Shown here piece after piece: positions 3,262 through 20,772 of a stretch of 23,600 nt of DNA. The notes under the pieces were generated by a model, which was given only the letters and a program-made list of their open reading frames with translations, searched no databases and had not been told where the DNA came from. A program made the position numbers and the translations under genes. Source of the stretch: an uncultured Victivallales bacterium (lineage in GTDB: Bacteria; Verrucomicrobiota; Lentisphaeria; Victivallales; GWF2-45-14). The DNA lies in NCBI GenBank assembly GCA_964651145.1, contig CAZYVR010000044.1, forward strand, positions 1 to 23,600, read 5' to 3'. Position 1 is the first letter of the stretch, and each line of letters begins with the position of its first letter.

Positions 3262-4251
3262 ATGGTCAAAAGAAAATGCGCAAAAAGCACAATAACGGAA
3301 ATAGCCAAAAGGGCTAAGGTTTCAGTCGCGACAGTATCCCGCGCATTCAGTGGGCACCCTTACGTAAAAGATGAATTGCGCGGGAAAATTTTCAAGTTGG
3401 CAAGAGAGCTAGATTACACACCTAAGGCAAGCGGAAGCAGGGAGCAAAGCACGATAGGAGTCATTATAAACGCATCTAAACGCAAAAAGCTTTCCATGGG
3501 GATTTTTGAATCAACCATGCTTAAAGAGCTCATAAATGAAATTTATTACCGCAACCTGAATCTCGAAATTATAACAGAAGTAAATCATTGTGATCTTGAA
3601 AAAAAATTCATAAAGGCGGCAATAATCCTTGGAGAGCACAAAGAAGAAGCGGGGAGTTTTTGCTCAAAGTGGCCAGGGACATCATTTATAACAGTCAATA
3701 ATTATATAGAAGGCTGCTATTTGGTTGCCTCGGACCACAAAGACAGCGCAAGGCAGGCGATAGAATATCTTATATCAAAAGGCCATAAAAAAATAGGCTT
3801 TCTTGGCTCGCTCCTTGAATCCTGGGGCGTAAAACAGCGATTTGAGGGATATAAAGAAGCCCTCGCTGAAAATTCTATAAAATCATCCCGCGATTATGTA
3901 AAATTCACAAATGGTTCAGAAGCGGTTGAATCCATTCTCAAAATAGCAAGATTTTCCCCGTCTGCTATTTTAGTCTGCGGTGAAAATATGTCAGCGCGAG
4001 CTAACTATGCCTTGTATCTTGCGGGGAATAAAGTTCCTGATGATATATCAATAATCACATATGAAGATTCTAATGTTTCAAAATATATATTCCCGCCAAA
4101 CACAACAATGTGCCAGGATTTTGCTCATCTGGCCAGCCTTGCCGTTGACAGAGCCGTTGAAATCATAAATGGCAATCCTAGTGATGATAAGAATATTTTC
4201 ATAAAAGATCAATTAATAGAAAGGGAATCTGTAAAAGATTTGACTTTCTGA
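3262..4251 (+). CDS. LacI-family transcriptional regulator
   Basis: 329-aa ORF. The N-terminal HTH TITEIAKRAKVSVATVSRAFSG is the LacI-type signature. The rest resembles a periplasmic-binding-protein-like sugar-binding domain. GGAG lies 11 nt upstream of the ATG. Confidence 0.85.
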   Translation: MVKRKCAKSTITEIAKRAKVSVATVSRAFSGHPYVKDELRGKIFKLARELDYTPKASGSREQSTIGVIINASKRKKLSMGIFESTMLKELINEIYYRNLNLEIITEVNHCDLEKKFIKAAIILGEHKEEAGSFCSKWPGTSFITVNNYIEGCYLVASDHKDSARQAIEYLISKGHKKIGFLGSLLESWGVKQRFEGYKEALAENSIKSSRDYVKFTNGSEAVESILKIARFSPSAILVCGENMSARANYALYLAGNKVPDDISIITYEDSNVSKYIFPPNTTMCQDFAHLASLAVDRAVEIINGNPSDDKNIFIKDQLIERESVKDLTF

Positions 4252-4420: not shown

Positions 4421-5641
4421 GTGAATAAGTCATCAAAATCATGGAATAAATACAGGCATAGTATTAAATTTCTTGCTCAAGGGAGCTCAACTTTATCAAA
4501 AGCTCCTCAATTTGAAAATATTGAACCAGCTCAAATTGCTTATGGCAAAGGATGCCGTGTATGGGATTTGGATGGCAATGAATATATAGACTATCGCAAT
4601 GGACTTGGTCCCGTCACGTTGGGGTATTGTGTCCCGGAAATAAACGATGCTATTATTGAGCAATTGAATAAAGGGATTGTTTTCGGGCATCCTCATTCAA
4701 TAGAAGGGGAAGCCGCTGAAATGTTGACAGAAGTAATCCCATGCGCAGAGCGGGTGTGCTTTCTGAAAACTGGCGGAGAAGCGATAGCCGCATGCATCAA
4801 GATAGCTAGAGCTGCAACCGGCAGAAGCAAAATAGTCCAGTGCGGATATAATGGATGGTTAAACAACTTAAGCGCCCCAAAGGGCAATATCCCAGCAGGA
4901 ATAGCGAACAGCCAACCTAATAAAGGAGTTCCATCTCAGATAAGCAGCTTACATCGCTCTCTCAGATGGGCAGACTATGAAGAATGGGATGAAGTATTTT
5001 CGCAAGATGGCGAGAACATCGCCGCGGTTGTTATATCTAGCAATTATCTCGAAATGGAAAAAGGGAAAGAATTTTTCCATTTTATCAGGCATTTGACTGA
5101 GAAATACGGGACGCTGATGATAATAGATGAAATCGTGACCGGATTCAGGCTTGCGCTAGGAGGCGCGCATGAATATTTCGATTTTATGCCAGATATGGCT
5201 GTCTTTGCGAAAGGCTTCGCAAATGGGATGCCCGTTTCCGCCTATCTTGGGAAAGGAAATCTTATTGATTTAACTAAGAAGCTTGGAATATCATCCACGT
5301 TTGCGGGCGAAACTTTGTCGCTGGCGGCAATTAAAGCAGTTATTTCATTCTATAAGAAAAATAATGTTATTGAACACCTATGGAAACATGGGGACATGTT
5401 ATGGACTCAGGTCAACAAGATTTTCGAGAAATATAAAATATCCGCTAGCGCAAAAGGCTATAATGTTTGTCCGCAAATGGCATTCGACAATATTTGTAAA
5501 AAAAATGAATTCTTCAAGAATTGCTACCTTAATGGAGTGTCCTTATATGATGTGTCATATGTTAATTTTTCGCACAAAGATAAAGATATAAATGAAACAT
5601 TGCAAAAAATAGAAAAGGCTGCAGAAATAATTAGCGGCTAA
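4421..5641 (+). CDS. Class-III (GSA-aminomutase-like) PLP-dependent aminotransferase
   Basis: 406-aa ORF with a GTG start preceded by AAAGGAG. The N-terminal pattern (AQGSSTLSK...YGKGCRVWDLDGNEYIDY...LGPVTLGY) is typical of HemL-like class-III enzymes. The PLP-lysine region is DMAVFAKGFANGMP. Specificity is unknown. Confidence 0.75.
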   Translation: MNKSSKSWNKYRHSIKFLAQGSSTLSKAPQFENIEPAQIAYGKGCRVWDLDGNEYIDYRNGLGPVTLGYCVPEINDAIIEQLNKGIVFGHPHSIEGEAAEMLTEVIPCAERVCFLKTGGEAIAACIKIARAATGRSKIVQCGYNGWLNNLSAPKGNIPAGIANSQPNKGVPSQISSLHRSLRWADYEEWDEVFSQDGENIAAVVISSNYLEMEKGKEFFHFIRHLTEKYGTLMIIDEIVTGFRLALGGAHEYFDFMPDMAVFAKGFANGMPVSAYLGKGNLIDLTKKLGISSTFAGETLSLAAIKAVISFYKKNNVIEHLWKHGDMLWTQVNKIFEKYKISASAKGYNVCPQMAFDNICKKNEFFKNCYLNGVSLYDVSYVNFSHKDKDINETLQKIEKAAEIISG

Positions 5642-5671
5642 TTTAATAAAATATAAATATAGAGGATGATT

Positions 5672-7963
5672 ATGAAAATGATAAAGCTGTATTTCTTTTG
5701 CTTTGTTTTGTGTTCTGTTTTATTTACAGGATGCTACTCTGAAAAAAGATATAATCACATCAAAGAAAAAGAATATCCAATAATTCAATTTGGCGCTGAC
5801 GGATCGGACGACAAGGATGATACGGAGGCATTCATAAAATTCCTCAAATCGACAGAAGAGCCTTGTGATTTATTCATACCTCCCGGAATTTATAAAATCA
5901 AAAAATTGATCATACCTGAAAAAATACGTCTTAATTTTGCAAATGGAGCTGTTTTTGATGTAGAACAATCCCTTAAAATAAATGGTCCTATTCAAGCGGG
6001 GATACAACAAATTTTTTCAGGCAATGGAAAAATAAATGGAAATATAAAAACAAACAGAGTTTTCCCACAGTGGTTTGGCGCCGCAGGAGACGGGATACAG
6101 GATGACTCTACTGCATTGCAGAACGCGGCGGATCTGGCCTGGAAGTCATCAGGCAAACTTCTGTTTATACCAGAAGGGAAATATCTTTTTGAGAAGGATA
6201 TTATTTTTCGCTGTAATATTGATTCTAACGGAATATTTTTAAAGAAAATTGAAATAGATGATTCAAAAACCGTTTTTTCTTATGCATCATTCTGTCACAG
6301 GCATTATGCTAAACGTTCTAAAATGTTGATTTTTAAAACTGATACCAAAGCTGTCAATTTGTCCCCCAAAGCTTTTTGGGGAATAAAGGAAAATGATTTT
6401 AAAATCCCCAAATTCAAGGGAATAAGCACCGTTGACGGAAAATCAAAAATAAACCTTGAGGAAGGAGCTACAATTAATTTTTTCAGCTCTGATTTTTTCA
6501 CTGCAAGGCAGCATAAACATGGTGATCAAGTTTATTATAAACGTGATATCTGCCAACTGGTCTCTCCGCGTGGAGATGTGTTTCCTGAATTCATGTTTTC
6601 ATTCTTGGCTCCGCCAAAGGCGGAAAAATGGAGCAAATATAAGAAATATAAAAAAGGCAAGTATTGTTCCTGGCAAGGAAATATTTATAAAGCTGTATTG
6701 CCTTCCGGGCCTGCGTCTGTATATAAGAATAAAAATAGATATAAAGGCACTGTGGAGATAGGACCTGTCTGCCCAAGAAAAAGTATGGAAACTTTTTTTA
6801 AGTTTAAATACCCGAATGGGGGGAATGACAAGATTCGTATCTGGAACAAACTTAAAACAATCGTGTCCTATACCCCTCCTCAAAAACCGTTGACTGTCAA
6901 CGGCCTCATTGTTGAAATATATCTTAAGAATTCCGATGGCAAAAGCAAGCGGATATTTGGTTCGGAAACCGTAAAGGTGGAGCGTAGCAACATGATTTTC
7001 AACAACCTTAGAATTTCATGCAAAAGCCGGGAAGCAACCCTGCCTGTTCTCCTGCGCACACTCGAGTGCTTAAACGTCACCTACAATAACTGTTATTTTT
7101 CAGGAGCATCCAATCATGGCTTAGGGTACAATATCGCTAATGCAAGATGTGCTGCAGTAACATATAATAATTGTATATCTGCTAATTGTCGTGATGGGAT
7201 GGGCGGGAAATTTGGAAAAAACATTACGGTAAAAGGAGGTTTTTATAACAGAATAGACGATCATTACGGGAAAAACTATCTTATTAAAGATGTTGTTATT
7301 AATGCGGTTTCAACTTTTATTCCTGGCTACGGAACACCACAGGCAAATCAGGATAAATGGGGATTTAAACCTCATTATGCCTTTGCCTTCAGCGGAGGAA
7401 ACATTAGAATAGAAAATTGCAGGATATATAATTGCGAAGGTGTTTTCTCCGTCAGAACAGATACTGCGGACATGTTTGGCTCTGTAATATTGAAAGATAT
7501 CGATATAATTTCAGACAGGCCTGTCACGCTGTTTTTACATTCAATATCTAAAGATTATTTTGACTATACAGGAAAATTAAGAGTTCCTTCCCAATTACTT
7601 ATAGAAAACATACACATGGAAAAAGATTTTCCATTAAGGATTATGATCAGGAATTTAGAAGCTTATCCATATGGTCGGATTAGTGTGAGAAACTGTCAAT
7701 ATCTTCAGAAGGTCATGCTTATGAATTCCGGGCAGGCTAATTTTACAGAATGTTCATTCAAAAATACAGTTTTTACATGTTCCCCGAAAGAGTTGCTGTT
7801 TTTCAGAAATTGTATTTTTTCAGGAACAACAAAAGGCCTTGAAAAAAAGAATATTGGCATTTCAACCGGCAATATAGATAAAAATGGAACATTGAAATGT
7901 ATTTTAACAGAACAGACGAATGCTCAAAACTCAGAAACAAATCAATCCTCAAAAAAGGAATGA
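5672..7963 (+). CDS. Lipoprotein with right-handed beta-helix / pectate-lyase-superfamily (PF12708-like) domains; putative polysaccharide hydrolase or lyase
   Basis: Signal peptide plus lipobox LFTGC. There are two copies of the pectate-lyase-3/GH55-type N-terminal motif (FGADGSDDKDDTEAF and WFGAAGDGIQDDSTALQNA). Asn/Gly-rich periodic repeats suggest beta-helix coils. The start is ambiguous (ATGs at 5666, 5672 or 5678); I chose 5672 for RBS spacing after AGAGG. Confidence 0.65.
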   Translation: MKMIKLYFFCFVLCSVLFTGCYSEKRYNHIKEKEYPIIQFGADGSDDKDDTEAFIKFLKSTEEPCDLFIPPGIYKIKKLIIPEKIRLNFANGAVFDVEQSLKINGPIQAGIQQIFSGNGKINGNIKTNRVFPQWFGAAGDGIQDDSTALQNAADLAWKSSGKLLFIPEGKYLFEKDIIFRCNIDSNGIFLKKIEIDDSKTVFSYASFCHRHYAKRSKMLIFKTDTKAVNLSPKAFWGIKENDFKIPKFKGISTVDGKSKINLEEGATINFFSSDFFTARQHKHGDQVYYKRDICQLVSPRGDVFPEFMFSFLAPPKAEKWSKYKKYKKGKYCSWQGNIYKAVLPSGPASVYKNKNRYKGTVEIGPVCPRKSMETFFKFKYPNGGNDKIRIWNKLKTIVSYTPPQKPLTVNGLIVEIYLKNSDGKSKRIFGSETVKVERSNMIFNNLRISCKSREATLPVLLRTLECLNVTYNNCYFSGASNHGLGYNIANARCAAVTYNNCISANCRDGMGGKFGKNITVKGGFYNRIDDHYGKNYLIKDVVINAVSTFIPGYGTPQANQDKWGFKPHYAFAFSGGNIRIENCRIYNCEGVFSVRTDTADMFGSVILKDIDIISDRPVTLFLHSISKDYFDYTGKLRVPSQLLIENIHMEKDFPLRIMIRNLEAYPYGRISVRNCQYLQKVMLMNSGQANFTECSFKNTVFTCSPKELLFFRNCIFSGTTKGLEKKNIGISTGNIDKNGTLKCILTEQTNAQNSETNQSSKKE

Positions 7964-8192
7964 TTCCTAAACTTTTCTATTTTTAAAAAAACATTGAAAA
8001 TATCCCTGAAAGGATCTGGAAATTAAAATGGGGTTATTCGGAACTTGCTGGGAATCTAAAATTTTCAGAAAAAAATATTGAAGGTGAATAATAAAAAAAG
8101 CAATCTCTTTGCATTGCTACATTAAATATATTTATATAGGCTTTCAAACCTATTATAATCACTATTTTTCAAAGAAATTGAAAAGGTTTCAT

Positions 8193-8933
8193 ATGATAAT
8201 TGATATTCATACACATAATATATCGAAAAGTTTAGATTCTCTTTTGGAGGCGGCAGAACGCAATGGAATAAGTAAAATAGTTTTACTTGGAGCTGTTCTA
8301 AAGTATGGCTCTTATCCAAATGAAACGCAGATTAGAGAAATAAACAACCTTACAGGAGAGAATGTCAAAAAATACCCAAAAAAATGCGTAGGTTTCTGTT
8401 TTCTTAATCCCGCACACAATTCTGAATTCATCATCAGTGAAATAGACCATTGCATACAGGATTTCGGTTTTAAGGGAGTAAAGCTTGAAGTTTCTGTAAA
8501 CTGCCGCGACGAAAGGCTTTATCCCATCATGGGGAAACTGGAAGAATATGATGTTCCGTTGCTTCATCATTCATGGTACAAAGCTGGCGGTAACCTTGCG
8601 GATGAATCGAATCCGGCAGACATAGCCTTTTTGGGTGCGAAGTTTCCAAATGTGAAAATAATAATGGCACATCTGGCAGGATGCGGTGTAAGGGGAATAC
8701 TTGACATCGCTCCCTTTGAAAATATTTACATCGACACTTCAGGCGGGCAGCCACATTCCGGTCTTGTGGAATTCGCATTGGAAAAGCTTGGGGCTGAGAG
8801 AATTATTTACGGATCAGATGCCCCTTACAGGGATTTCTCTGTTCAGCTAGGCAGAATAGCGGGAGCAGAAATAAGCGACGAAGCAAAAGAAATGATTTTA
8901 GGCAAGAACGCGGAAAGGCTTTTGGCAATATGA
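8193..8933 (+). CDS. Amidohydrolase-2 (PF04909-like) TIM-barrel metal-dependent hydrolase
   Basis: N-terminal MIIDIHTH (HxH metal ligands). Later His/Asp ligand candidates are LLHHSW, IMAHLAG and IIYGSDAPY. The ATG at 8193 is preceded by AAAAGG. The longer ORF from 8109 has an implausible N-terminus. Confidence 0.7.
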   Translation: MIIDIHTHNISKSLDSLLEAAERNGISKIVLLGAVLKYGSYPNETQIREINNLTGENVKKYPKKCVGFCFLNPAHNSEFIISEIDHCIQDFGFKGVKLEVSVNCRDERLYPIMGKLEEYDVPLLHHSWYKAGGNLADESNPADIAFLGAKFPNVKIIMAHLAGCGVRGILDIAPFENIYIDTSGGQPHSGLVEFALEKLGAERIIYGSDAPYRDFSVQLGRIAGAEISDEAKEMILGKNAERLLAI

Positions 8934-9679
8934 AATTCTTCGATGCAAATGTTCTTTGGGGAAACTGGCAGTTTCAGGGAGTATTCATGCAACCTCCTGA
9001 AAAGCTCGAAAGCGCCTTAACTATAAGAAACATAAATCGCGCTCTCATCAGAATGCCTGATGCCGCAGTATGTCCTGATATTGAAAAATGCAACTCAATG
9101 CTTTTTGAAGCATTCAATAAAAATAAACAATTAATTCCAGTACCGACAATTAATCCGAAACAAGCAGACTGGCAAATACAGATAGAAAAATTTAAATCAC
9201 CCTTCGTTAATCTTTATCCTGGATATCATGGATATAGTCTCCAAAGTAAAGAAGCCTGTGAACTTGCAGAGGTGATTTGCGCCAAAGGTAAAACAATACT
9301 AATAACAATTCGCCTGGAAGATCCAAGGGCATCAAACCAGTATTGCCGTTTCCCGGAAGTCCCTGTTGAAGATGTGAAAAATTTCATTGAAAAATTTCCA
9401 ATGTTGAAAGTAATTGCTCTTAACATTTCTTTTGCAGAAATGAAAAAATTAGCCCAGTATAAATATAAGAATTTTTATATGGATATCGCATACGCTGAAA
9501 TTCTCAACACATTGGAACGCATCATTAGTCTTATTCCCCATGAACAAGTTCTTTTCGGTTCAAATACTCCTCTTTTTTATACTGAAGCCGCAAGTGCCAA
9601 GATTACAAAATCAGTTTGTAGAGAAGAAGTTAAAGAAAATATAGCTTATAATAATTTATCCAGAATTATAACATTATAA
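8930..9679 (+). CDS. Degenerate amidohydrolase-2 paralog (metal ligands replaced; probable pseudoenzyme), translationally coupled to the upstream amidohydrolase
   Basis: ATGA start/stop overlap at 8930-8933. Segment-wise similarity to the upstream protein: FPMLKVIALNISFAE~FPNVKIIMAHLAG, KNFYMDIAY~ENIYIDTSG, EQVLFGSNTPLFY~ERIIYGSDAPY. The metal ligands are changed: HxH->FDAN, H->L/N, D->N. Confidence 0.6.
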   Translation: MKFFDANVLWGNWQFQGVFMQPPEKLESALTIRNINRALIRMPDAAVCPDIEKCNSMLFEAFNKNKQLIPVPTINPKQADWQIQIEKFKSPFVNLYPGYHGYSLQSKEACELAEVICAKGKTILITIRLEDPRASNQYCRFPEVPVEDVKNFIEKFPMLKVIALNISFAEMKKLAQYKYKNFYMDIAYAEILNTLERIISLIPHEQVLFGSNTPLFYTEAASAKITKSVCREEVKENIAYNNLSRIITL

Positions 9680-9762
9680 TTCGCCCAAAAACCTGGATAA
9701 TTGAATAAGATGTAAAATTTCCTTAAATAAGACTAAATCGATGCAGCAAAGAAAGGAGATAT

Positions 9763-10278
9763 TCACCTTTCTTTTCTTCGGGGAATCTCCAATTTTGTAA
9801 TTCCCCAATGTTTATTCTCTTTTTTTCCTAGGAAAATACATTTTATTTTGAAAAATTTTTCTTTGCAATAAATGAAGCTACCCTTTATTTCATTGTCTTT
9901 TAATTTTTCCCATTTCAAATCTTTTATATCTTTTAATTGGGCTAAGGACTCTCCTCTTTTCATGATATTTATACCTATGGGTAAAAGAGGAGTATTTCCC
10001 GCCAAAGAGTCAATTTCATATTCTTTACGATCTTGGGGACTCATCCCTAAGATAAAAGAAGAGAGATTGTGGTCTCCCAATTCTGATTTTAAGTATTTCA
10101 GAATATTTGGCCTGAGTTATGATTCCATTTTTTTTGCCACTTCTTTTATTTTTTGAGGCGTCGCGGAAAATTGAATGACTTTGGCTATAGCATCTTCTAT
10201 TTCCTTTTTTTCCACGGCAAATGAATTAAATTCTAGAAACAATAAAAATGAGAGACAAGCAATAAAACTCTTTTTCAT
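9763..10278 (-). pseudogene. Small secreted protein gene interrupted by a single in-frame TAA (possible pseudogene, or two small ORFs)
   Basis: The ATG at 10278 is preceded by AAGGA and followed by a signal-peptide-like MKKSFIACLSFLLFLEFNSFA. A 53-codon ORF ends at TAA (10117-10119). The same frame continues for 118 more codons to a TGA at 9763-9765, with no RBS and only a TTG start. The region is AT-rich. Confidence 0.35.
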
Positions 10279-10492
10279 AATAAACATTCCTTTTAAATCT
10301 TGAGAGCTCCGAGTTCTTTGCTGTCAAAAGCCGATCTCTTTGTCTGTTAACTTAGCCAATTCCAATGAATAATCAATCGGCACCGGAGCCAGCACAAATA
10401 AATCTTTATATATAAAAGAATTATATTATTACACTTTTTTTTAAATATTAGCTAAGAAATCTAACCCCATATGTGGAAATGCAAGAGTTTTT

Positions 10493-10582
10493 TGCGCTGT
10501 CGCGGCAACTAGATTCAGCTTGTTTTCGCTTCTCGTTGCAACAAGCTGCAAGCTTTTCAATATGTCGTCTGCGCTGTCGCGG
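10493..10582. repeat. 13-bp direct repeats TGCGCTGTCGCGG (x2) flanking a 9-bp-stem hairpin CAGCTTGTT..AACAAGCTG
   Basis: Direct repeats at 10493-10505 and 10570-10582. The hairpin stems are 10516-10524 and 10541-10549, followed by CAAGCTTTTCAA. This is non-coding sequence upstream of thiG. Confidence 0.5.
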
Positions 10583-10635
10583 AATTTTTATATGCCAATG
10601 GCTTTCGCCGTTGGCTACCAGCGATTCAACAGTTG

Positions 10636-10744
10636 GATGGCGTCCGAAAAAAGTCCGGCTTTTATTCCGGCTGCGCCGTTTTTTTTAGTTTTAAGACTTT
10701 TGGCGGAGCCATCTCGCTCAGCGACAGTCACGCTAAAAGTAGAG
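10636..10744. repeat. Copy B of the intergenic terminator-like repeat family
   Basis: See copy A. GATGGCGTCCG...AAGTCCGG..TTTTATTCCGG..GCCGTTTTTTTTAGTTTTAAGACTTTTGGCGGAGCCATCTCGC. The 3' half is also similar to copy C (15056-15108). Confidence 0.6.
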
Positions 10745-10815
10745 TTAGCCAGCGCAATGCGGGTTGAATTTTACCAGCCCAATGCTAAGTTTAAATTTTA
10801 ATTTTTCAACATTTT

Positions 10816-11601
10816 ATGGCAAGAACTATTATGAATAAACTAAAAATAGCAGGCTCTGAATTAAAAAGCAGGCTTTTTCTGGGCACTGGCAAATTTTCGT
10901 CGTCCAAAGCCTTGAAAAACGCCATTGAATCATCCGGAACTGAACTGGTGACGGTGGCTCTGAGACGCGTGGAGTTAAACAACGAACAAGATGAGATATT
11001 ATCGGCAATAGACCGCGCCAAAACGCAAATAATGCTGAATACCAGCGGTGCCAGAAATGCGGAAGAGGCTATCAGAATCGCCGATTTCGGGAAAGCGGGC
11101 GGATATAAATGGATAAAGCTGGAAATTCACCCGGATCCTAATTATTTGCTTCCAGACCCCATCGAAACACTCATTGCCGCAGAAAAGCTCGTCCAAAAAG
11201 GCTTCATCGTATTGCCGTATATAAACGCGGACCCCGTGTTGGCCAAAAGACTTGAAGACGTTGGTGTCCATGCGGTAATGCCGCTCGGAGCCCCCATAGG
11301 AAGCAACCGCGGCCTGGAAACAAAGGCCATGCTTAGAATAATAATAGAGCAGGCGACTGTGCCGATAGTTGTCGACGCCGGCCTAGGATTGCCGTCTCAC
11401 GCGGCGGAAGCAATAGAAATGGGAGCGGACGCCGTTCTTGTCAACACTGCAATAGCCGCGGCCGGGAATCCGGCTGAAATGGCAAAAGCTTTTGCAATGG
11501 CGGTGGAAGCAGCCGAGCTGGCAATAAAAGCCGGTCCAGCCGCAATATCAGCAAAAGCGTCAGCCACATCCCCCATGGGCATTTTTGACAATGCAGTTTA
11601 A
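10816..11601 (+). CDS. thiG: Thiazole synthase ThiG
   Basis: Near-colinear match to the ThiG hallmark blocks: [83 protein letters not shown] and [33 protein letters not shown]. The start could be 10816 or 10831. No obvious RBS. Confidence 0.85.
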
Positions 11602-13124: not shown

Positions 13125-13289
13125 TCAGGCTGTCAATGCGCGCTGGCGCGCCAATCCCAAAAATGATACCTTATTTATTCCATAAGAATTAGACGCGCGC
13201 TGGAATTAATGATATATTCATGATTTTGCCGCTTTTATAAAAAGGAAATAATTTTTTTTAGATAAACAATGAAGGAAGGAAAACTCGTT

Positions 13290-13982
13290 ATGAAGTTTAC
13301 ATCTGAAGTGGAAGGCATGATATGCATTGCACAGGGGCCCAATAATGGGCCGTCCCCCATCCCTGAAGAGGGAAAATGGGTGCAGGCTAGAGAAATCAAG
13401 GATATCTCGGGATTGACTCACGGCGTCGGCTGGTGCGCCCCGCAACAGGGAGCATGCAAGCTTACCTTGAATGTCAAAGAAGGCATAATTGAAGAAGCTC
13501 TAGTGGAAACACTGGGCTGCACAGGGATGACTCATTCCGCCGCCATGGCCTCGGAAATACTTCCCGGCAAGACTATTCTTGAAGCCTTGAACACTGACTT
13601 GGTCTGCGATGCCATCAACGTGGCAATGAGGGAACTTTTTCTTCAAATAGCTTACGGCAGAACGCAAACAGCTTTTTCCGAAGGCGGACTTCCAATTGGA
13701 GCCGGACTTGAAGACCTGGGCAAAGGCCTGATGAGCGTGACCGGAACAATGTACGGAACAAAGGCCAAGGGCCCAAGATACCTGCAGGCTGCCGAAGGAT
13801 ATATTTGCGAGCTTGCGCTTGATGACAATGACGAAATCATCGGGTACAAATTTGTAAAGATGGGCATTATGATGGAGAACATCCAAAAAGGGATGGACGC
13901 GGGCGAAGCTCTCAAAAAGGCAACCGGAACATACGGACGCTTTGCCGACGCAGTAAAAACTGTAAATCCTAGACACCAGTAA
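13290..13982 (+). CDS. NifU/IscU-like Fe-S scaffold domain protein with a ~110-aa C-terminal extension
   Basis: GIIEEALVETLGCTGMTHSAAMASEILPGKTILEALN aligns to IscU [38 protein letters not shown]. All three scaffold Cys positions are kept (GACK, GCTGM, LVCDAI), but the CGD Asp and HCS His are not. The start is 13290 (RBS AAGGAAGGAAAA) or 13269. Confidence 0.65.
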   Translation: MKFTSEVEGMICIAQGPNNGPSPIPEEGKWVQAREIKDISGLTHGVGWCAPQQGACKLTLNVKEGIIEEALVETLGCTGMTHSAAMASEILPGKTILEALNTDLVCDAINVAMRELFLQIAYGRTQTAFSEGGLPIGAGLEDLGKGLMSVTGTMYGTKAKGPRYLQAAEGYICELALDDNDEIIGYKFVKMGIMMENIQKGMDAGEALKKATGTYGRFADAVKTVNPRHQ

Positions 13983-13999
13983 ATTAAGGAGCTCATCAT

Positions 14000-14995
14000 A
14001 TGTTATTTGAAAGTTATGAAAGACGGATAGATCAAATTCTCCCTTTGCTGAAAAAGCACGGGATTGATTCTGTGGAAGATGCTCAGGTCGTTTGCAAAGA
14101 CAAAGGTCTTGACATTTATACTTTGGTAAAAGAAATTCAGCCGATATGCTTTGAAGATGCATGCTGGTCATACATTGTCGGAGCTGCTGTGGCTATTAAA
14201 AAAGGCCAGACAGCCGCCACTGATATAGCCGAAACTATCGGTGAAGGATTGCAGGTTTTTTGCATTCCTGGCTCTGTCGCTGACGACAGAAAAGTCGGAA
14301 TCGGACATGGCAACCTGGCTTCCATGCTTCTCAAAGAAGAAACCAAATGCTTTGCGTTTCTGGCTGGACACGAATCCTTTGCCGCCGCAGAAGGCGCAAT
14401 CGGGCTTGCCAATTCCGCCAACAAGGCTAGAACAGAGCCGCTTCGCGTAATTCTCAACGGCCTGGGCAAAGACGCAGCTCAGATTATCGCCAGAATAAAC
14501 GGCTTCACCCATGTTCAGACTAAATTCGACTACTCCACTGGGGCTCTCGAAATTGTCAAAGAAACGCCATATTCAAAAGGCGACAGGGCGAAGGTCAAAT
14601 CTTATGGCGCAGACGATGTTCGCGAAGGCGTGGCTATTTTGACTTATGAAAAAGTCGATGTTTCCATCACTGGAAACTCCACCAATCCGACGCGCTTCCA
14701 GCATCCTGTTGCCGGCACATACAAGAAAGAATGCGTGCTTGCTGGCAGGAAATATTTCTCAGTGGCTTCTGGCGGCGGAACAGGAAGAACTCTTCATCCT
14801 GACAACATGGCTGCCGGCCCGGCCTCTTACGGGATGACTGACACAATGGGCAGGATGCACTCTGACGCTCAGTTTGCTGGTTCCTCTTCTGTCCCGGCGC
14901 ACGTCGAGATGATGGGCTTAATCGGCATGGGCAACAACCCGATGGTTGGAGCTTCTGTCGCTGTTTCAGTAGCTGTTGAAGGAGTTATGAAATAG
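14000..14995 (+). CDS. GGGtGRT-motif protein (uncharacterised conserved family)
   Basis: 331 aa. The literal motif VASGGGTGRTLHPDNMAAGP is present. I recall, but cannot verify, that 'GGGtGRT protein' is the annotation label of a family of unknown function. A strong RBS TAAGGAG lies 8 nt upstream. The gene is 17 bp after the NifU-like gene. Confidence 0.6.
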   Translation: MLFESYERRIDQILPLLKKHGIDSVEDAQVVCKDKGLDIYTLVKEIQPICFEDACWSYIVGAAVAIKKGQTAATDIAETIGEGLQVFCIPGSVADDRKVGIGHGNLASMLLKEETKCFAFLAGHESFAAAEGAIGLANSANKARTEPLRVILNGLGKDAAQIIARINGFTHVQTKFDYSTGALEIVKETPYSKGDRAKVKSYGADDVREGVAILTYEKVDVSITGNSTNPTRFQHPVAGTYKKECVLAGRKYFSVASGGGTGRTLHPDNMAAGPASYGMTDTMGRMHSDAQFAGSSSVPAHVEMMGLIGMGNNPMVGASVAVSVAVEGVMK

Positions 14996-15188: not shown

Positions 15189-15210
15189 TTAACCGCTCTT
15201 GGGGATTTTT

Positions 15211-16287
15211 ATGCAAGCGACTATGCCGGAATATATGAAGGTAAGGGCATACCTTTACAAGCTGATAATGAGTTCCGACAGAGAATCTCTCCAAATTCCT
15301 CCTGAGAACGAGCTGTGCCGCCTCTTTGATGTCAGTAGGGTTACTGTTCGCGGAGCAATCAAAGGTCTGGTCAAGGACAAATTTCTGATTCCGCGCCGTG
15401 GCCTCGGCACTTTTATAAACCCGGAAACACTCAATCGCAAAACGCTGCAAATGTCTACAATCGGGGTGACTAAAGGCTACGGGAATCATGTATCCAATAC
15501 ATATGACACAGGCATACTTGAAAGCATCATTCAAAGCGGATTGAATTTTGAGCCTGTGTATCTTCCTGATTCAGGCAAGCCGGATACTCTTTTAGAAATA
15601 ATTAGAAGCAGTTTAAGTGGGATCATATGGGAGAACTCGAGTGTCGATTCTTCTTTTGAAAGCTATATTGACGCTCTTTCAAAAAGTGGAATCCCTGCGC
15701 TTTTGGTGGAGGAGGAAAAGCCTCTGGGCGCAAATGATTATATACTTTCAACCCGCGTCCAAAGAGGACGAGTCATTGCTGATTACATGTATTCCAAAGG
15801 ACACAAGAGAGTTTTATTTATTCATAATGACGATTCTTATGACGCGCATTTCAACCCATCTTCGACCTACGGCGGTTATTGTCAGCGCATGACTGAATTA
15901 TGCGGCGATGAGTGGGGGGCTCTCGAAAATAACATTGTCTCAGCTCAAGACTTTAATCGCAAACTTAAAGCCATCAATTCATTTACAGCTGTTTATTCAG
16001 GCAACTATCTGGTTCCTTTTGCAACTGATGAGCTGGCTTCGGCAGGAATATCCGTGCCGGATGATTTGTCGTATCTTGTGTATGAGGAGTCAAGCCCTTT
16101 CTTCTTTAACGGCCTTCAACCTGACTTTATAGATAAAAAAGAGCCGCTTAAAAAAGCTGTCTTTGAATGGCTGAGTCTTAGAGTTTCTAAAGAGAGAAAA
16201 AAATCGGATATCTTTTGCAGAAATATCGAAGTAAAACCTGTTCCAGGCGAAACAGTAAAAGATTTGAATGGAGGGAAAAATGATTAA
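15211..16287 (+). CDS. GntR-family HTH regulator fused to a LacI/PBP-like sugar-binding domain
   Basis: The N-terminal [38 protein letters not shown] is a GntR winged-helix signature. The C-terminal ~270 aa resembles a periplasmic-binding-protein-type effector domain. An alternative TTG start is at 15199. Confidence 0.7.
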
Positions 16288-17029
16288 TAAAAATAAAAGA
16301 TGTTTTAAGAAATTTACACTCATTGAATTGCTCGTTGTAATTGCCATCATAGCAATCCTGGCGAGCATGCTGCTGCCCGCCTTAAACAAAGCGCGCGAGA
16401 CAGGAAAAAGAATCGCCTGTCAGTCAAATGAAAAGCAATTGGGGCTGGCGTTTCAGATGTATCTGGGTTCGTGGGATGGCTGGTGGTTTGATCCAACCTG
16501 CTCTGATGATGACTTAAAAAAATGGCCGAAAATTCTCATTGAGGAAGGATCCGTAAAACAAGGCAGGCATCCAGTTGACTTTGACCTGCATTGCCCTAGC
16601 CGCCTTTCCCCGGGGCCAGACCCTTACAATTGGGACACTCTTGAGCATGATAATTTTACTGATTACGCTTTGTGCGCCACCAATTACTGGTCAGGAGGAG
16701 GTTTAAAAGGCGTTCATTCTGATTACAGCGGATGCAAAGCCAATCAAATAAATAACCCATCTAATTTTATAGTCCTCACTGAACGTTGGGATAAAAATCC
16801 AAAGACAATCAACAGCACGCTGGTGCGTGATCGAAGATACTGGCCAGGCGGCGCCAATGACACCTTTCTCCATCCATGGATGCATGACAAAAGCAGCAAT
16901 TATTTGTTTGCTGACGGTCACGTGGAGTCTATTTTGGCAAAGCAATTGAGATTGGAAAGGTTTATGCTGGGAACGAATCAAGGATATTATGACGCTAATA
17001 AAGATTTTCAGCCAACTTGTCCATGGTAA
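16280..17029 (+). CDS. Prepilin-type N-terminal cleavage/methylation domain protein with C-terminal H-X9-DG (DUF1559-like) motif
   Basis: [26 protein letters not shown] is the class-III signal/methylation motif. The C-terminal [21 protein letters not shown] contains H-X9-DG. The GGAGGG RBS overlaps the last 8 bp of the GntR gene. Confidence 0.8.
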
Positions 17030-17079
17030 ACAACTAAGATTATGCAAAATAACAATAACAGAACATCAGGAGTTTTTTT

Positions 17080-20000
17080 ATGAGGAAGAGTTGTTACTTG
17101 GCTTTGGCCGCAACGGTATTGACATCGTGCACAATTTTTGATAAGGCTACAGAGAATATTCCGCCAGTCAAAGTGGATAATTCCATTGGCAAAAGAATGA
17201 TAGAAAGACCTAAGTCACCTAGGGTGTTTAATGGCGATTTTGATCTGGGAACAGCCGGCTGGGCATTGAAATATTATGTTAACGCAAAGGGAGCATTTAA
17301 AGACAATATTCCTCAGTTGACCACAGTCCCAACGCCTGAAGGAAAAGGCTCTTGCTTGAAAGCCGCATCTATTTCCGGCGCGCATCTTTATTGGCTTGCG
17401 GGACGTGAAGTTTACCTGAAAAAAGGAGCCAAAGTTGACCTAAGCTTTAGAGCCAAAATAAAGAAATTTCCAGGCTGCGCGGATATAAAAGACTTTTTTA
17501 TAGACTTCAGGAATTTCAACAAACATCATCATGGAATGAGCACGGCTGAAAGATATTGGATTACTGGTGTTAGGTTAAAAAAAGTTTCTGAAAAATGGAA
17601 AACAGCCAGCAAGATTTTGACCATCCCAAGGGATGGCTATTATTTCTTTCGCTTTGTAATTCAGCCCAAAGACAAAAGCAAGCCGTTCCCAGATATCTAT
17701 ATTGATTCTGTAAAACTAACTCCTCTCAATGACAAAGCCAAATCTGCTGGAATCATTCCGCAAATTGCAATTTATGAGAATAAAAACATTCCGGCATATG
17801 GAATAGAAGAAAAAATCAACTATGAGGTCAAAGCGAAATTTTTCGATTCATCTAAGAAAGTTAAAAAAGTTTCAATGGATATAGTTGACGACCAGACTTT
17901 GGAGCCTGTGTTAAGCAGGGAGGTTGAGCTCGTCCGCAAAGGAAATGGCATATACGAAGGCACATGCAGTTTTAAGCCCAACCGCTACGGAAGCTATTCC
18001 ACGCGTGTTCGCAATGATAAAAATTCTGCGCTTGATTGGTTTGGCGGTGATTTCAGCGTTATGCATCCTATTCTTAAGCATGATTCAAATTCCATAGCAA
18101 AAGGGATTGGCATAAACGGAGAAGCGCATGCGCCTGGAAAATTGACGAGCAAAAAATTTCATTTTTATGCAACCTCAGGAACGCTCAAGCGTTATTTTGA
18201 TGTATTGCGTGTAGCTGGCATTGGAAATGTTCGCTCCTGGAATTTTAGATGGAAATTTGTTGAGCCGGAAAAGGGCAAATTTGACTTTTCTCAAACAGAT
18301 ATGATAGTGCGCGAGCACAAGAAGCGCGGCATTGACTTGATCGGCACGCTTGGCTTGGATTTCACCAAACGGAAAGCCATAAAAAGAAAACGAAATATTC
18401 CTGACTGGGTTTTGCCTTTATGCAAAATGCATAAAGTGAGCAAAGCACACAGCATGGAAGCCTTTGTCCCTCCATTCGATTTGTGGGAAAATTACTGCAA
18501 GGCTTTGATGGGGCATTACAAAAACGACATTAAAGTATGGGAAGTTTTCAACGAGCCTAATGGATGGATGACTCCGAAAAATTATTTGGAGTATGTTAAA
18601 GCCGCGCGCAGAGCCGCAGACTCTGTGTCGCCAGACATAAAAATCATTGGGCCATGTCCTACTGGAGATTTTGCGGCTGACCGCTTTGCCGGATGGTCAA
18701 AAGAATTCCTAGCGCTTGGCGGAGAAAAATACATAGACGGCTTTGCCTATCATCCCTATGGAGCTTCAAATGACTTTCAAAATGGGAAATTTTTTGAGGC
18801 AACCGCAACTATTGACTCAATCCGCTCATGGCTGAAAAATAAGTCTTTGCCTCTATACAACACAGAGTGCTATCACTTTCCAAACTCCCTGCTTTTGCGA
18901 ACAACGCAGGGAGATGCATCCACTTTGTTGCGCCATTACCTGATAACTTTGGGCAAAGGCGTAAAAAGCAGCGCGTCTATTGCGGCTCAGCAAATTTTTA
19001 AATTCAGATTGAATCCTCACATTTGCTTGAATATGACTCACAATATGGAATCGGTTCCCGGTCCGATAGCCGCCGCTTTAAACAACCTGGCATTCCAGTT
19101 GAAAGACATGACAAAGACTGAGTCTCTAAAACTTAACAAGTTTATCAACTGCTATGTTTTTTCCGGCGCAAAAGATGAAGGAGCTCTTGCCGTCCTTTGG
19201 GATTTGCGTCCGAACGGCAACCAGTGGACCTCCAAGGCGAGCGCAAGCAATCTGCGCTTTCTGGACATGTGGGGCAATCAAATAAATGCAGACGGCAAAG
19301 GCATTCACTTAGGGCTTAATCCTGTTTATGCTTCCGGCAAGAAAAGTGAAATTGAAAATTACTTGCAGAAATCAAAATTTCAGTTGTCTGCTCCTGTGAA
19401 AATAACAGGGCGTTTTTTCAAGAACGACCTTTATCTCAACGCTAAAAACATGTCGGGCATGTGCTTTGCGCCAGAGGTAGAATTCACTTCTGTTAAAGAA
19501 CTGAATTTGCCCAAATCTGCGCAGTTTGCTTTTGCGAACAATCCAGACTGTTCCGTTTTTTTGCCGGGCGCTGCAAAGGGAACCGCAACTTCTGCGGGCG
19601 CAACGTTTGATGTAATAGTCAAAAACGAAAAAATAGGTTCGGACAAAATAAAATTGCTCCCAAAGAATCCGGCTTATGATCTGCCGTTTGCAGGAGCCAA
19701 GCCGCTGGAGCTGACGCTTCCGGGAGGCTCAATAGCAAAGCTTGTTGCCCAAAAAGATTCTCTGTCAATCACTGTGACAGTCAAAGATAAAAATATAGTG
19801 TCCCCAAAAAAGCATAAGCCCTGGAGTGGCGATGCGGTGGAAGTGTTTGTGGACACTGCTCCGTTTGCAAGTCTTGAGAGAAATCTCATACATGGCGGAG
19901 AAGGCGCGTTGCCTGTGCGTCAGTATATAATCCCGGCAAAACCGAACGCTGGAGAAAAGCAGTTCTGGACCAGCAACAAAAGTCCTGAGTCCCCAACTGT

Positions 20001-20772
20001 CAAAACACAAAAGACATCGGCTGGGTACAAAGTTAACATTCAGATTCCATGGAAAGCCATCAAGCCATCCGGCAATCGCTATGGAATATACGGCATTGAT
20101 ATTGAAGTCGACCATGTTAAGGCTATTGGCGGAAAAAATATCAAAGAAACGCTAAGCGGCAAGCCTGGGCAGTCATACAAAATTCGTCTCCACTATCCGC
20201 TGTTCAGCGTTCCTGAGCAGGCTGAGCTTTATTCAGGCTTTGACGCGCTGGGCGCGGAAAAACTTGTTAATGGATCATTTGAGAAAAAAAAAGAAAAGGA
20301 AAACGAGCCGAAAGGTTGGATGAACAGATGGGATCGCAAAAAAAAAGTGTATGACTATGGGGATTTTGGTTATAACGGGACAAAGGGCGTGACTGTAAAA
20401 CTTGATACGCCGTCAATAAAGCATGTTCAGGGATGGCCTCAAAAAATCAAATGCAATCCAGACGGGAAAACCAATCTGTTGATTGAAGGCTTCGTAAAAG
20501 CGGAAAATATTAAAAAGGCAGAGGGAGAAAAAAGAAGAGCTGGCCTGCGTTTTTTCTGCCATTTTTATAATGATGTCAAAAAGAAACACATGGATAATAT
20601 AGGCATTGGCGTAAACGAAAGCATTACAGGCTCTTTTGGATGGAAAAAAATCCAATGCGTCATTCCTGTCCCCAGAGGCGCTACATCCTGTCAGCTTTCA
20701 TGCGGTTTGAGCCAAGGGGTCACTGGCGCTGTATGGTTCGATGACGTTCATATAAAAACAATAAGCAAATAG
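17080..20772 (+). CDS. Large multidomain glycoside-hydrolase lipoprotein (GH clan-A catalytic domain flanked by CBM-like beta-sandwich domains)
   Basis: 1230 aa. Lipoprotein signal with lipobox LTSC. The clan GH-A acid/base motif is VWEVFNEPNGW. The nucleophile candidate is LYNTECY. The N-terminal region (VFNGDFDLGTAGW) and C-terminal region (LVNGSFE...GW) look CBM4/9/22-like. The DAVEVFVDTAPF segment looks CBM9-like. AGGAG RBS. Confidence 0.7.
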   Translation: MRKSCYLALAATVLTSCTIFDKATENIPPVKVDNSIGKRMIERPKSPRVFNGDFDLGTAGWALKYYVNAKGAFKDNIPQLTTVPTPEGKGSCLKAASISGAHLYWLAGREVYLKKGAKVDLSFRAKIKKFPGCADIKDFFIDFRNFNKHHHGMSTAERYWITGVRLKKVSEKWKTASKILTIPRDGYYFFRFVIQPKDKSKPFPDIYIDSVKLTPLNDKAKSAGIIPQIAIYENKNIPAYGIEEKINYEVKAKFFDSSKKVKKVSMDIVDDQTLEPVLSREVELVRKGNGIYEGTCSFKPNRYGSYSTRVRNDKNSALDWFGGDFSVMHPILKHDSNSIAKGIGINGEAHAPGKLTSKKFHFYATSGTLKRYFDVLRVAGIGNVRSWNFRWKFVEPEKGKFDFSQTDMIVREHKKRGIDLIGTLGLDFTKRKAIKRKRNIPDWVLPLCKMHKVSKAHSMEAFVPPFDLWENYCKALMGHYKNDIKVWEVFNEPNGWMTPKNYLEYVKAARRAADSVSPDIKIIGPCPTGDFAADRFAGWSKEFLALGGEKYIDGFAYHPYGASNDFQNGKFFEATATIDSIRSWLKNKSLPLYNTECYHFPNSLLLRTTQGDASTLLRHYLITLGKGVKSSASIAAQQIFKFRLNPHICLNMTHNMESVPGPIAAALNNLAFQLKDMTKTESLKLNKFINCYVFSGAKDEGALAVLWDLRPNGNQWTSKASASNLRFLDMWGNQINADGKGIHLGLNPVYASGKKSEIENYLQKSKFQLSAPVKITGRFFKNDLYLNAKNMSGMCFAPEVEFTSVKELNLPKSAQFAFANNPDCSVFLPGAAKGTATSAGATFDVIVKNEKIGSDKIKLLPKNPAYDLPFAGAKPLELTLPGGSIAKLVAQKDSLSITVTVKDKNIVSPKKHKPWSGDAVEVFVDTAPFASLERNLIHGGEGALPVRQYIIPAKPNAGEKQFWTSNKSPESPTVKTQKTSAGYKVNIQIPWKAIKPSGNRYGIYGIDIEVDHVKAIGGKNIKETLSGKPGQSYKIRLHYPLFSVPEQAELYSGFDALGAEKLVNGSFEKKKEKENEPKGWMNRWDRKKKVYDYGDFGYNGTKGVTVKLDTPSIKHVQGWPQKIKCNPDGKTNLLIEGFVKAENIKKAEGEKRRAGLRFFCHFYNDVKKKHMDNIGIGVNESITGSFGWKKIQCVIPVPRGATSCQLSCGLSQGVTGAVWFDDVHIKTISK

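What the first reader, a model, noticed from the sequence alone, without database searches (positions are those of the whole stretch)
8193..9679. Active amidohydrolase-2 translationally coupled to a catalytically degenerate paralog
The two ORFs overlap by ATGA and share block-wise similarity, but the downstream copy has lost every candidate metal ligand (HxH->DAN, His->Leu/Asn, Asp->Asn). An obligatory enzyme/pseudoenzyme heterocomplex is a reasonable inference. A second inference is that it acts on a product of the adjacent aminotransferase/beta-helix enzymes, for example deacetylation or decarboxylation of a modified sugar acid.
Basis: partly seen in the sequence, partly recalled or inferred. 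Interest (0 to 1): 0.55.

Follow-up and report, generated by a model that had tools for sequence, protein, structure and literature searches.

The report
Paired amidohydrolases, one lacking metal ligands
Two overlapping genes encode a normal metal-dependent TIM-barrel enzyme and a diverged copy without its metal-binding residues; the pair is conserved, and sometimes fused, across more than a dozen bacterial phyla, so it is probably an uncharacterised two-subunit enzyme of sugar breakdown.

Summary
A (8193-8933) is a canonical Pfam Amidohydro_2 protein: H6, H8, H126, H160 and D209 are invariant in 119 homologues. B (8930-9679) overlaps A by ATGA. It is a true but very distant paralogue (hhalign probability 98%, E 2.8e-13; AlphaFold pLDDT 97; nearest folds are ACMSD-type decarboxylases). 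Every canonical ligand position is replaced (H6->N7, H8->L9, H160->N165, D209->N212; the strand-5 His falls by R128/L129 or at N135).

This is not a local decay. Among 86 loci, 78 A genes are followed directly by a B gene, and 46 of those junctions are the same 4-nt overlap. At least three independent A-B fusions exist. B keeps its own near-invariant set (D5, N7, H100, R128, D131, R133, K224) at the catalytic face of the barrel, so "degenerate" describes only the metal site.

A PLP aminotransferase (class III or DegT) lies in the held flanks of 45 of 86 loci. The beta-helix neighbour is specific to this window.

The best reading is an obligate two-subunit Amidohydro_2 enzyme in cytoplasmic catabolism of glycan-derived sugars. 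The complex is inferred and the reaction is unknown. No curated family, solved structure or paper covers the pair.

The parts
8193..8933 (+). Gene A: canonical Amidohydro_2 (PF04909) TIM-barrel protein, 246 aa. Complete ligand/catalytic set H6, H8 (strand 1), H126 (after strand 5), H160 (after strand 6), D209 (after strand 8). K97 on strand 4 is also invariant.
   Evidence: Pfam 96.5 bits against a cut-off of 26.4. Residues invariant in 119 and in 75 homologues. Model pLDDT 96.1, pTM 0.94. Nearest folds are gamma-resorcylate/DHB decarboxylases, 3cjp, LigJ, LigY and ACMSD.
8930..9679 (+). Gene B: diverged Amidohydro_2 paralogue, 249 aa, without the canonical metal ligands (N7, L9, N165, N212). 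It carries the B-family signature D5, N7, W13, H100, R128, D131, R133, K224.
   Evidence: Pfam 17.4 bits, below the cut-off. hhalign against the A family gives probability 98%. Model pLDDT 97.2 with an eight-strand barrel. 103 of 136 family members hit PF04909.
8930..8933 (+). ATGA overlap: the start codon of B shares bases with the stop codon of A.
   Evidence: Read directly from the sequence. The same 4-nt overlap occurs at 46 of 78 A-B junctions in other genomes, and about 60 of 78 junctions overlap in some way.
8912..8918 (+). Shine-Dalgarno-like GGAAAGG inside the 3' end of A, 11 nt before the B start.
   Evidence: Read by eye. Not tested.
8131..8159 (+). Promoter-like site (TTTATA-17-TATAAT) in the 229-nt gap before A. 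The pair may have its own promoter or may be read through from upstream.
   Evidence: Consensus scan, 10 of 12 matches. No terminator-like site lies between 7963 and 8193. This is weak evidence in AT-rich DNA.
4421..5641 (+). Class-III PLP aminotransferase, glutamate-1-semialdehyde-aminomutase-like, 406 aa. It is the recurrent partner of the pair.
   Evidence: Pfam Aminotran_3 E 9.5e-45. 58% identical to the aminotransferase next to the pair in Planctomycetota locus L004. A member of this cluster is present in 29 of 86 loci. Nearest solved structures are GSA aminomutases, 4zm3/4zm4 and C-6' aminotransferases.
3262..4251 (+). LacI-family regulator at the head of the same-strand gene run.
   Evidence: Pfam LacI plus Peripla_BP_3. 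Other loci carry AraC, LacI or GntR regulators beside the pair.
5666..7963 (+). 765-aa pectate-lyase-like beta-helix protein with a signal peptide and a lipobox-like LFTGC. It is a neighbour in this window only and is not part of the conserved module.
   Evidence: Pfam Pect-lyase_RHGA_epim E 5.5e-15. No similarity to the large neighbours in L004 or L001. It joins no neighbour cluster. The lipobox was read by eye.

Best explanation
A and B are the two parts of one conserved enzyme module.

A is a metal-dependent Amidohydro_2 barrel of the ACMSD-related branch and does the metal-assisted chemistry. B is an ancient paralogue with about 17-21% identity to A. It has replaced the whole canonical metal site but keeps a conserved, largely cationic pocket (R128, R133, K224, plus D5, D131, H100) at the same face of the barrel.

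The overlapping stop and start codons favour production of the two proteins together, in step. They most likely assemble into a heteromer. In that heteromer B either binds an anionic part of the substrate or reaches into A's site. A precedent is the ACMSD homodimer, where an arginine from the neighbouring subunit is needed for catalysis.

The module works in the cytoplasm of glycan-degrading bacteria. Its substrate is probably a sugar-derived acid or keto/amino sugar that is made or consumed by a neighbouring PLP aminotransferase. The most likely chemistry is decarboxylation, hydration or lactone/C-C hydrolysis rather than amide hydrolysis.

What is shown: homology, ligand loss, the conserved pairing, the overlap and the fusions. 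What is inferred: the physical complex, the role of B, the substrate class and the reaction type.
For: Homology and ligand loss.

Pairing: 86 loci carry labels from at least 14 phylum-level groups. They hold 78 A-then-B pairs, 2 B-then-A, 1 fusion and only 3 A genes with no B where there was room.

Coupling: 46 of 78 junctions are a 4-nt overlap.

Fusions: P0259 occurs in three separately deposited assemblies (five contigs in all). P0277 is 34% identical to it. L041 6995-8584 is a third. Each has an A-type N-half and a B-type C-half. P0279 is a more distant fusion in the opposite order.

B is under selection on its pocket. D5, D131 and R133 are invariant and H100, R128 and K224 are at least 89% conserved in 136-144 sequences. 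All of them sit in or just after barrel strands in the model.

A is more conserved than B across the same genomes: 47-71% against 26-64% identity.

Context: the loci have AraC, LacI or GntR regulators, GH20, GH123, GH2, heparinase II/III-like proteins, GFO/IDH/MocA oxidoreductases and sugar isomerase-like genes. An aminotransferase is present in 45 of 86 loci and directly adjacent in 30.

Nearest characterised relatives of A are decarboxylases, LigJ hydratase, LigY and ACMSD. The title of PDB entry 4ifk states the role of the neighbouring-subunit arginine in ACMSD.
Against: - No direct evidence of a complex. Gene fusion and coupling also occur for enzymes of consecutive steps.
- B's conserved polar residues could form an active site of its own, so 'non-catalytic' is unproven.
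- D5/H100/D131, plus His at position 212 in 61% of the family, could in principle bind a metal in a non-canonical way. I had no coordinates to check the geometry.
- An aminotransferase is absent from the held flanks of 41 of 86 loci. Among loci with at least 3 kb on each side, only 27 of 45 have one.
- No member of either subfamily has been characterised, so the substrate and reaction are guesses from distant relatives.
- Three A genes lack a B (L057, L066 and the first A of L086).
Confidence: 0.6

Rival explanations
1. A and B are two separate enzymes for consecutive steps. B is a metal-independent catalyst using D5, H100, D131, R133 and K224, for example as an isomerase, lactonase or hydratase. 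The genes are coupled and occasionally fused only because the steps follow each other.
For: B's most conserved residues all lie at the catalytic face of the barrel. A metal-independent member of this Pfam family, LigI, is known; this rests on my own knowledge, and LigI-like structures are among B's fold matches. Fusions of consecutive pathway enzymes are common.
Against: LigI keeps the His and Asp residues of the canonical site, which B has lost entirely. The near-absolute pairing and the 4-nt overlap across more than a dozen phyla are tighter than usual for pathway neighbours. By contrast the aminotransferase, which would also be a pathway neighbour, is present in only about half of the loci.
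Confidence: 0.22
2. B still binds a metal through a shifted ligand set (D5, H100, D131 and His at position 212), so the pair is two active metalloenzymes or a hetero-bimetallic assembly.
For: D5 and D131 are invariant, H100 is 94% conserved and position 212 is His in 61% of the family. Asp on strand 1 is a metal ligand in the amidohydrolase-related dinuclear oxygenases (PMC13154177).
Against: In the window's own B, position 212 is Asn and position 7 is Asn, which leaves few ligands. Two invariant or near-invariant arginines sit beside these residues, which is unusual for a metal site. The oxygenase motifs D-x-H and D-x-P-H-x-[DE] are absent from both proteins.
Confidence: 0.08
3. A is an N-deacetylase of an N-acetylated amino sugar, and its free-amine product is taken by the aminotransferase.
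For: The aminotransferase association is real. GH20 and GH123 hexosaminidase-type genes lie near the pair in one locus, and NagA/NagB in another.
Against: The nearest characterised relatives of A by sequence and by fold are decarboxylases, a hydratase and a C-C hydrolase. To my knowledge no PF04909 member is a deacetylase. PMC13154177 describes the non-redox members of the family as hydrolases and decarboxylases such as LigI, LigJ and GraF. Locus L007 already has a NagA-type deacetylase.
Confidence: 0.08
4. B is a decaying duplicate with no function, and the overlap is incidental.
For: Window B falls below the Pfam threshold and lacks all canonical ligands.
Against: 929 representative clusters match the B profile and 449 do so at E <= 1e-10. 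There are invariant residues across phyla. The model is a confident, complete barrel. Position and overlap are conserved.
Confidence: 0.01

Closest known systems
ACMSD-related decarboxylases and hydratases of Pfam PF04909 (ACMSD, gamma-resorcylate/DHB decarboxylases, LigW, IDCase, LigJ, LigY)
   Same: Same fold and same family for A, with the same strand-1 HxH, strand-5 His, strand-6 His and strand-8 Asp. These are the top sequence and fold matches for both A and B. In ACMSD the active site is completed by an arginine from the neighbouring subunit (title of PDB entry 4ifk), which is a model for what B could do.
   Different: Those enzymes are homo-oligomers of about 320-370 aa acting mostly on aromatic or ring-cleavage acids. 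Here there are two different 246-249 aa chains, one without a metal site, in sugar-utilisation loci. Identity to any of them is only 10-20%.
Enzyme plus dead-paralogue heteromers ('prozymes': trypanosomatid AdoMetDC/prozyme and deoxyhypusine synthase)
   Same: An active enzyme is partnered with a paralogue that has lost catalytic residues, and the partner is required for activity (PMC5201418 and PMC3663545, listed).
   Different: The fold, the kingdom and the genetics all differ: those genes are unlinked and eukaryotic. Here activation by B is not shown, and B keeps a conserved pocket.
Inactive members of the amidohydrolase superfamily used as structural partners (the DHOase-like PyrC' subunit of Pseudomonas ATCase; CRMP/DPYSL proteins). 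This comparison rests on my own knowledge.
   Same: Amidohydrolase-fold proteins that have lost metal ligands yet are retained for a non-catalytic role in a complex.
   Different: Those belong to the Amidohydro_1/DHOase branch and partner with unrelated proteins, not with their own active paralogue.
Amidohydrolase-related dinuclear oxygenases (AROs: SfbO, PtmU3) within PF04909
   Same: Same Pfam family, and an Asp on strand 1 is used (PMC13154177).
   Different: The defining motifs D-x-H plus D-x-P-H-x-[DE] are not both present. A has D-x-H but DAPYRD after strand 8. B has D-x-N and SNTPLF. Neither protein is an ARO.
Uncharacterised structural-genomics proteins 3cjp (CAC3332), 3irs (BB4693) and 3ij6
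   Same: Short Amidohydro_2 barrels of similar size. They give the only near-full-length sequence matches to the A or B profiles.
   Different: E-values are only 1e-7 to 1e-13, no function is known, and they were solved as single proteins.

Membership tests
Pfam PF04909 Amidohydro_2 (protein A) | Score above the curated gathering threshold | tested here: met
   96.5 bits against 26.4, E 3.1e-27.
Pfam PF04909 Amidohydro_2 (protein A) | Canonical ligand/catalytic set: HxH on strand 1, His after strand 5, His after strand 6, Asp after strand 8 | tested here: met
   H6, H8, H126, H160 and D209 are invariant in 119 and in 75 homologues and sit at strand ends in the model.
Pfam PF04909 Amidohydro_2 (protein B) | Score above the curated gathering threshold | tested here: not met
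   Window B scores 17.4 bits against 26.4. However, 103 of 136 B-family members match at E <= 1e-3 and the profile-profile probability against the A family is 98%. B is therefore a diverged member at family level.
Pfam PF04909 Amidohydro_2 (protein B) | (beta/alpha)8 amidohydrolase fold | tested here: met
   pLDDT 97.2 with eight strands. Foldseek probability 1.00 and TM 0.72-0.78 to PF04909 structures.
Pfam PF04909 Amidohydro_2 (protein B) | Canonical metal ligand set | tested here: not met
   The window has N7, L9, N165 and N212. In the family HxH survives in 1 of 144, the strand-6 position is never His and the strand-8 position is never Asp.
Enzyme/pseudoenzyme heteromer | The two chains form a stable complex | not testable with these tools
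   There is no multimer prediction. Indirect support only: fusions and coupling.
Enzyme/pseudoenzyme heteromer | The partner has no catalytic activity of its own | not testable with these tools
   Only loss of the canonical site is shown. A conserved polar pocket remains.
Translationally coupled gene pair | Stop/start overlap that is conserved in orthologous loci | tested here: met
   ATGA at 8930-8933. 46 of 78 junctions are 4-nt overlaps and others overlap by 1-14 nt. Coupling itself is inferred, not measured.
Amidohydrolase-related dinuclear oxygenases (ARO) | D-x-H on strand 1 together with D-x-P-H-x-[DE] after strand 8 (PMC13154177) | tested here: not met
   A has DIH but D209-A-P-Y-R-D. 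B has D-A-N and S-N-T-P-L-F.
NCBIfam curated protein families | Any model hit for A or B | tested here: not met
   No family at E <= 0.1 for either protein.

The most novel reading that the evidence does not exclude
The A-B pair is a previously unrecognised heteromeric class of Amidohydro_2 enzyme. The ligand-less subunit supplies an arginine/aspartate constellation (R128, D131, R133) that completes or gates the metal site of its partner. Together with a dedicated PLP aminotransferase, the pair carries out an undescribed step in the catabolism of amino- or keto-sugar acids. This step would be widespread in Planctomycetota, Verrucomicrobiota, Lentisphaerota, Chloroflexota and other glycan degraders.
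Probability: 0.25. Interest if true: 0.7.

Novelty: new variant of a known kind. Interest (0 to 1): 0.55.

Why it matters
PF04909 enzymes are treated as homo-oligomers, and annotation pipelines label both of these genes 'amidohydrolase family protein' or 'hypothetical'. Showing that hundreds of sequence clusters form an obligate canonical-plus-ligandless pair would have three consequences:
- It would add a bacterial, operon-encoded example of an enzyme working with a paralogue that lacks the canonical catalytic site. This example comes with natural fusions that make it easy to express.
- It would explain why single-gene expression of such 'amidohydrolases' may fail.
- It would flag a missing reaction in the poorly mapped cytoplasmic sugar metabolism of PVC-group and Chloroflexota glycan degraders, where the pair travels with aminotransferases, oxidoreductases and glycoside hydrolases.

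There is also a practical point. B's start codon is mis-called in at least one public record, which hides both the overlap and the diagnostic N-terminal motif.

Tried and rejected
- A genome scan with the 8-sequence B alignment failed because it had no conserved stretch to back-translate. I used the A-family profile instead, which also gave an unbiased test of whether B follows A.
- A block-diagonal alignment on the natural fusion P0259 cannot be made with MAFFT. The A and B families are homologous, so both align to the same half. No fusion model was run, and the second structure job went to A alone.
- The B-family profiles have no close solved relative. The narrow profile hit nothing significant and the broad one hit only generic PF04909 structures.
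- The ARO (dinuclear oxygenase) reading was checked against the published motifs and rejected.
- The large beta-helix neighbour was tested as a conserved partner and rejected.
- Neighbour clusters 2, 5, 8, 11 and 12 are antisense shadow ORFs of GC-rich genes and were discarded.
- Four literature searches found nothing on this pair. The one Verrucomicrobiota paper that mentions COG2159 only equates it with lignin use.
- Rfam found nothing in the window.
- The hairpin AAGAAAGG-N9-CCTTTCTT at 9749-9773, after B, was seen by eye but did not meet the terminator scan's criteria.
Full report
**What is in the window.** Gene A runs from ATG 8193 to TGA 8933 (246 aa). Gene B runs from ATG 8930 to TAA 9679 (249 aa). 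They share the four bases ATGA. A GGAAAGG lies 11 nt before the B start, inside A. Both genes sit at the end of a same-strand run: a LacI-type regulator (3262-4251), a class-III aminotransferase (4421-5641) and a 765-aa beta-helix protein with a signal peptide (5666-7963). A promoter-like site lies at 8131-8159 in the 229-nt gap before A. No terminator-like site separates A from the upstream genes. Best matches point to a Victivallales (Lentisphaerota) genome.

**Checking the observation.**
- A is a clear Pfam Amidohydro_2 protein at 96.5 bits. B reaches only 17.4 bits, below the cut-off.
- Pairwise BLASTP gives E 1e-6 over the last 104 residues.
- A profile of 14 A-family sequences against 8 B-family sequences gives hhalign probability 98%, E 2.8e-13, over 231 columns, which is end to end.
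- AlphaFold models are confident for both: B has pLDDT 97.2 and pTM 0.93, and A has pLDDT 96.1 and pTM 0.94.
- Both models hit the same solved structures: gamma-resorcylate/DHB decarboxylases, ACMSD, IDCase, LigW, LigJ, LigY, LigI-like proteins and 3cjp.

B is therefore a real, very distant paralogue of A with 17-21% identity.

The B start at 8930 is right, because the N-terminus FFD[AS]N[VI]LWGNWQFQG is almost invariant in orthologues. One public gene call starts 19 codons later.

**Ligand loss.** In 119 A homologues H6, H8, H126, H160 and D209 are invariant, as is K97. In the profile alignment:

| A residue | B residue | Note |
|---|---|---|
| D4 | D5 | conserved in both |
| H6 | N7 | |
| H8 | L9 | |
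| H160 | N165 | |
| D209 | N212 | |
| H126 | N135 | gapped alignment; by position after strand 5 in the two models it falls beside R128/L129 |

Across 144 B-family sequences HxH is kept once. The strand-6 position is N, G, C, S or A and never His. The strand-8 position is H (61%) or N (16%) and never Asp.

**The pair is a conserved unit.** A full HMMER scan with the B profile found 929 representative clusters at E <= 1e-3 and 449 at E <= 1e-10. I then fetched loci using the A profile only, so that the presence of B was a test and not a selection criterion. This gave 80 genome loci with labels from at least 14 phylum-level groups: Lentisphaerota, Planctomycetota, Verrucomicrobiota, Kiritimatiellota, Chloroflexota, Bacillota/Limnochordia, Spirochaetota, Armatimonadota, Bacteroidota/Rhodothermales, KSB1, Marinimicrobia, Dormibacterota, Omnitrophota and Poribacteria.

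With the earlier loci and the window this makes 86 loci:
- 78 A genes are followed directly by a B gene on the same strand.
- 2 have the order B-A.
- 1 is a fusion.
- 4 lie at a contig end.
- 3 have room but no B.

Of the 78 junctions, 46 are the same 4-nt overlap and about 60 overlap in some way.

Fusions:
- P0259 (533 aa) has an A-type N-half with HxH and a B-type C-half. It occurs in three separately deposited assemblies, five contigs in all.
- P0277 (559 aa) has the same architecture and is 34% identical to P0259.
- L041 6995-8584 is a third A-B fusion.
- P0279 is a more distant fusion in the opposite order.

**B is not simply degenerate.** In 136-144 family members D5, D131 and R133 are invariant. 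G11, W13, P97, H100, Y102, R128, G210, P214 and K224 are about 89-98% conserved, and N7 is 88%. In the model these residues lie in strand 1 (D5, N7), just after strand 4 (H100), just after strand 5 (R128, D131, R133) and in the helix after strand 8 (K224). These are the positions that carry the active site in this superfamily. Position 94 on strand 4 is K or R in 85% of the family. The pocket is thus conserved and largely cationic, which suggests an anionic ligand. I could not obtain coordinates, so I cannot say whether D5/H100/D131 (with H212 in most members) could hold a metal. In the window's B, positions 7 and 212 are Asn.

**Context and function.** Clustering all neighbours in the 86 loci shows two recurrent partners. 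One is a class-III aminotransferase like the window's (29 loci; 58% identical in a Planctomycetota locus). The other is a DegT/DnrJ/EryC1 aminotransferase (24 loci).
- 8 loci have both and 41 have neither in the DNA held.
- 27 of the 45 loci with at least 3 kb on both sides have one.
- In 30 loci the aminotransferase is directly adjacent to the pair.

Less frequent neighbours are GFO/IDH/MocA oxidoreductases, an NAD-epimerase-like protein, DHDPS-like proteins and CN-hydrolases. Individual loci add AraC, LacI or GntR regulators, GH20, GH123, GH2, heparinase II/III-like proteins, glucuronoyl-esterase-like proteins, 3-keto-disaccharide-hydrolase-like proteins, and NagA/NagB. The window's beta-helix protein has no counterpart elsewhere. 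The window's aminotransferase is closest to glutamate-1-semialdehyde aminomutases and to sugar C-6' aminotransferases.

The module therefore belongs to cytoplasmic processing of glycan-derived sugars in which an amino/keto exchange is frequent. The reaction cannot be assigned. The closest characterised relatives of A are non-oxidative decarboxylases, a hydratase and a C-C hydrolase, none of them amide hydrolases. I therefore rank decarboxylation, hydration or lactone hydrolysis of a sugar acid above deacetylation, with low confidence.

**Mechanism proposed.** A carries the metal chemistry, and B is made together with it through the overlapping stop and start codons. The two probably form a heteromer in which B binds part of the substrate or completes A's site, by analogy with the neighbouring-subunit arginine of ACMSD (PDB 4ifk). 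The pairing, the overlap, the fusions and the residue patterns are shown. The complex, the role of B and the chemistry are inferred.

The main rival is two consecutive enzymes, with B a metal-independent catalyst. A non-canonical metal site in B is a smaller rival. A functionless duplicate is excluded by the conservation.

**Comparison with what is known.**
- Both proteins belong to PF04909 at fold level. A passes every membership feature. B fails the Pfam threshold and the ligand test.
- Neither protein meets the motifs of the amidohydrolase-related dinuclear oxygenases (PMC13154177).
- No NCBIfam model matches either protein, and no solved structure is close.
- Four literature searches found no description of the pair.
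- Conceptually the nearest systems are enzyme/dead-paralogue heteromers such as trypanosomatid AdoMetDC/prozyme (PMC5201418). From my own knowledge, inactive amidohydrolase-fold partners such as PyrC' are also comparable.

**Verdict.** B is a conserved, specialised subunit or enzyme and not a decayed copy. The conserved partner is an aminotransferase, not the beta-helix protein. I rate it a new variant of a known kind, of moderate interest (0.55). It is a well-defined, widespread, uncharacterised two-gene enzyme family with natural fusions that make it experimentally tractable.

Noticed in passing
window 8930-8989: At least one public gene call for B starts at M20 (230 aa, P0001) instead of the conserved M1 (249 aa, P0274). 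The short call removes the ATGA overlap and the diagnostic FFDANVLWGNW motif.
   Followed up: yes
L005 3850-5444; P0279 (540 aa): A second, more distant canonical-plus-ligandless Amidohydro_2 pair sits a few kb from the main pair in a Kiritimatiellae contig. P0279 is a fusion in the reverse order, with a B-like N-half (FFDCN) and an A-like C-half (DAHAH). The theme may extend to further subfamilies.
   Followed up: partly
L091 4974-6405: A 357-aa Amidohydro_2 gene directly followed by a Rieske protein lies 3 kb upstream of an A-B pair. This is the genomic signature that PMC13154177 uses for amidohydrolase-related dinuclear oxygenases.
   Followed up: no
L057 254-1027; L066 629-1543; L086 3-656: Three A-family genes have room downstream but no B gene: one in Poribacteria, one in Sphaerobacteraceae, and the first gene of an A-A-B tandem. 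They could show whether A can work alone.
   Followed up: no
window 16268-17029; L001 4429-5112; L089 11727-12476; L090 1782-2543: Short proteins with an N-terminal methylation motif (N_methyl / DUF1559, pilin-like) recur beside the aminotransferase and the pair, and beside GntR-type regulators and large glycoside-hydrolase-like genes. In the window the run is 15199-20772.
   Followed up: no
window 13269-14995: A NifU-like protein (237 aa, weak hit) is followed 17 nt later by a GGGtGRT-family protein (PF14057, E 8.8e-190). This is another conserved-looking pair of unknown function.
   Followed up: no
window 9680-10815: About 1.1 kb has no long ORF between B and thiG (10816-11601). Rfam finds no TPP riboswitch or any other family here or anywhere else in the window.
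   Followed up: partly
window 9749-9773: Hairpin AAGAAAGG-N9-CCTTTCTT followed by a T-rich run, 70 nt after the B stop. It may be a weak terminator. It has only two G-C pairs, so the scan did not list it.
   Followed up: partly
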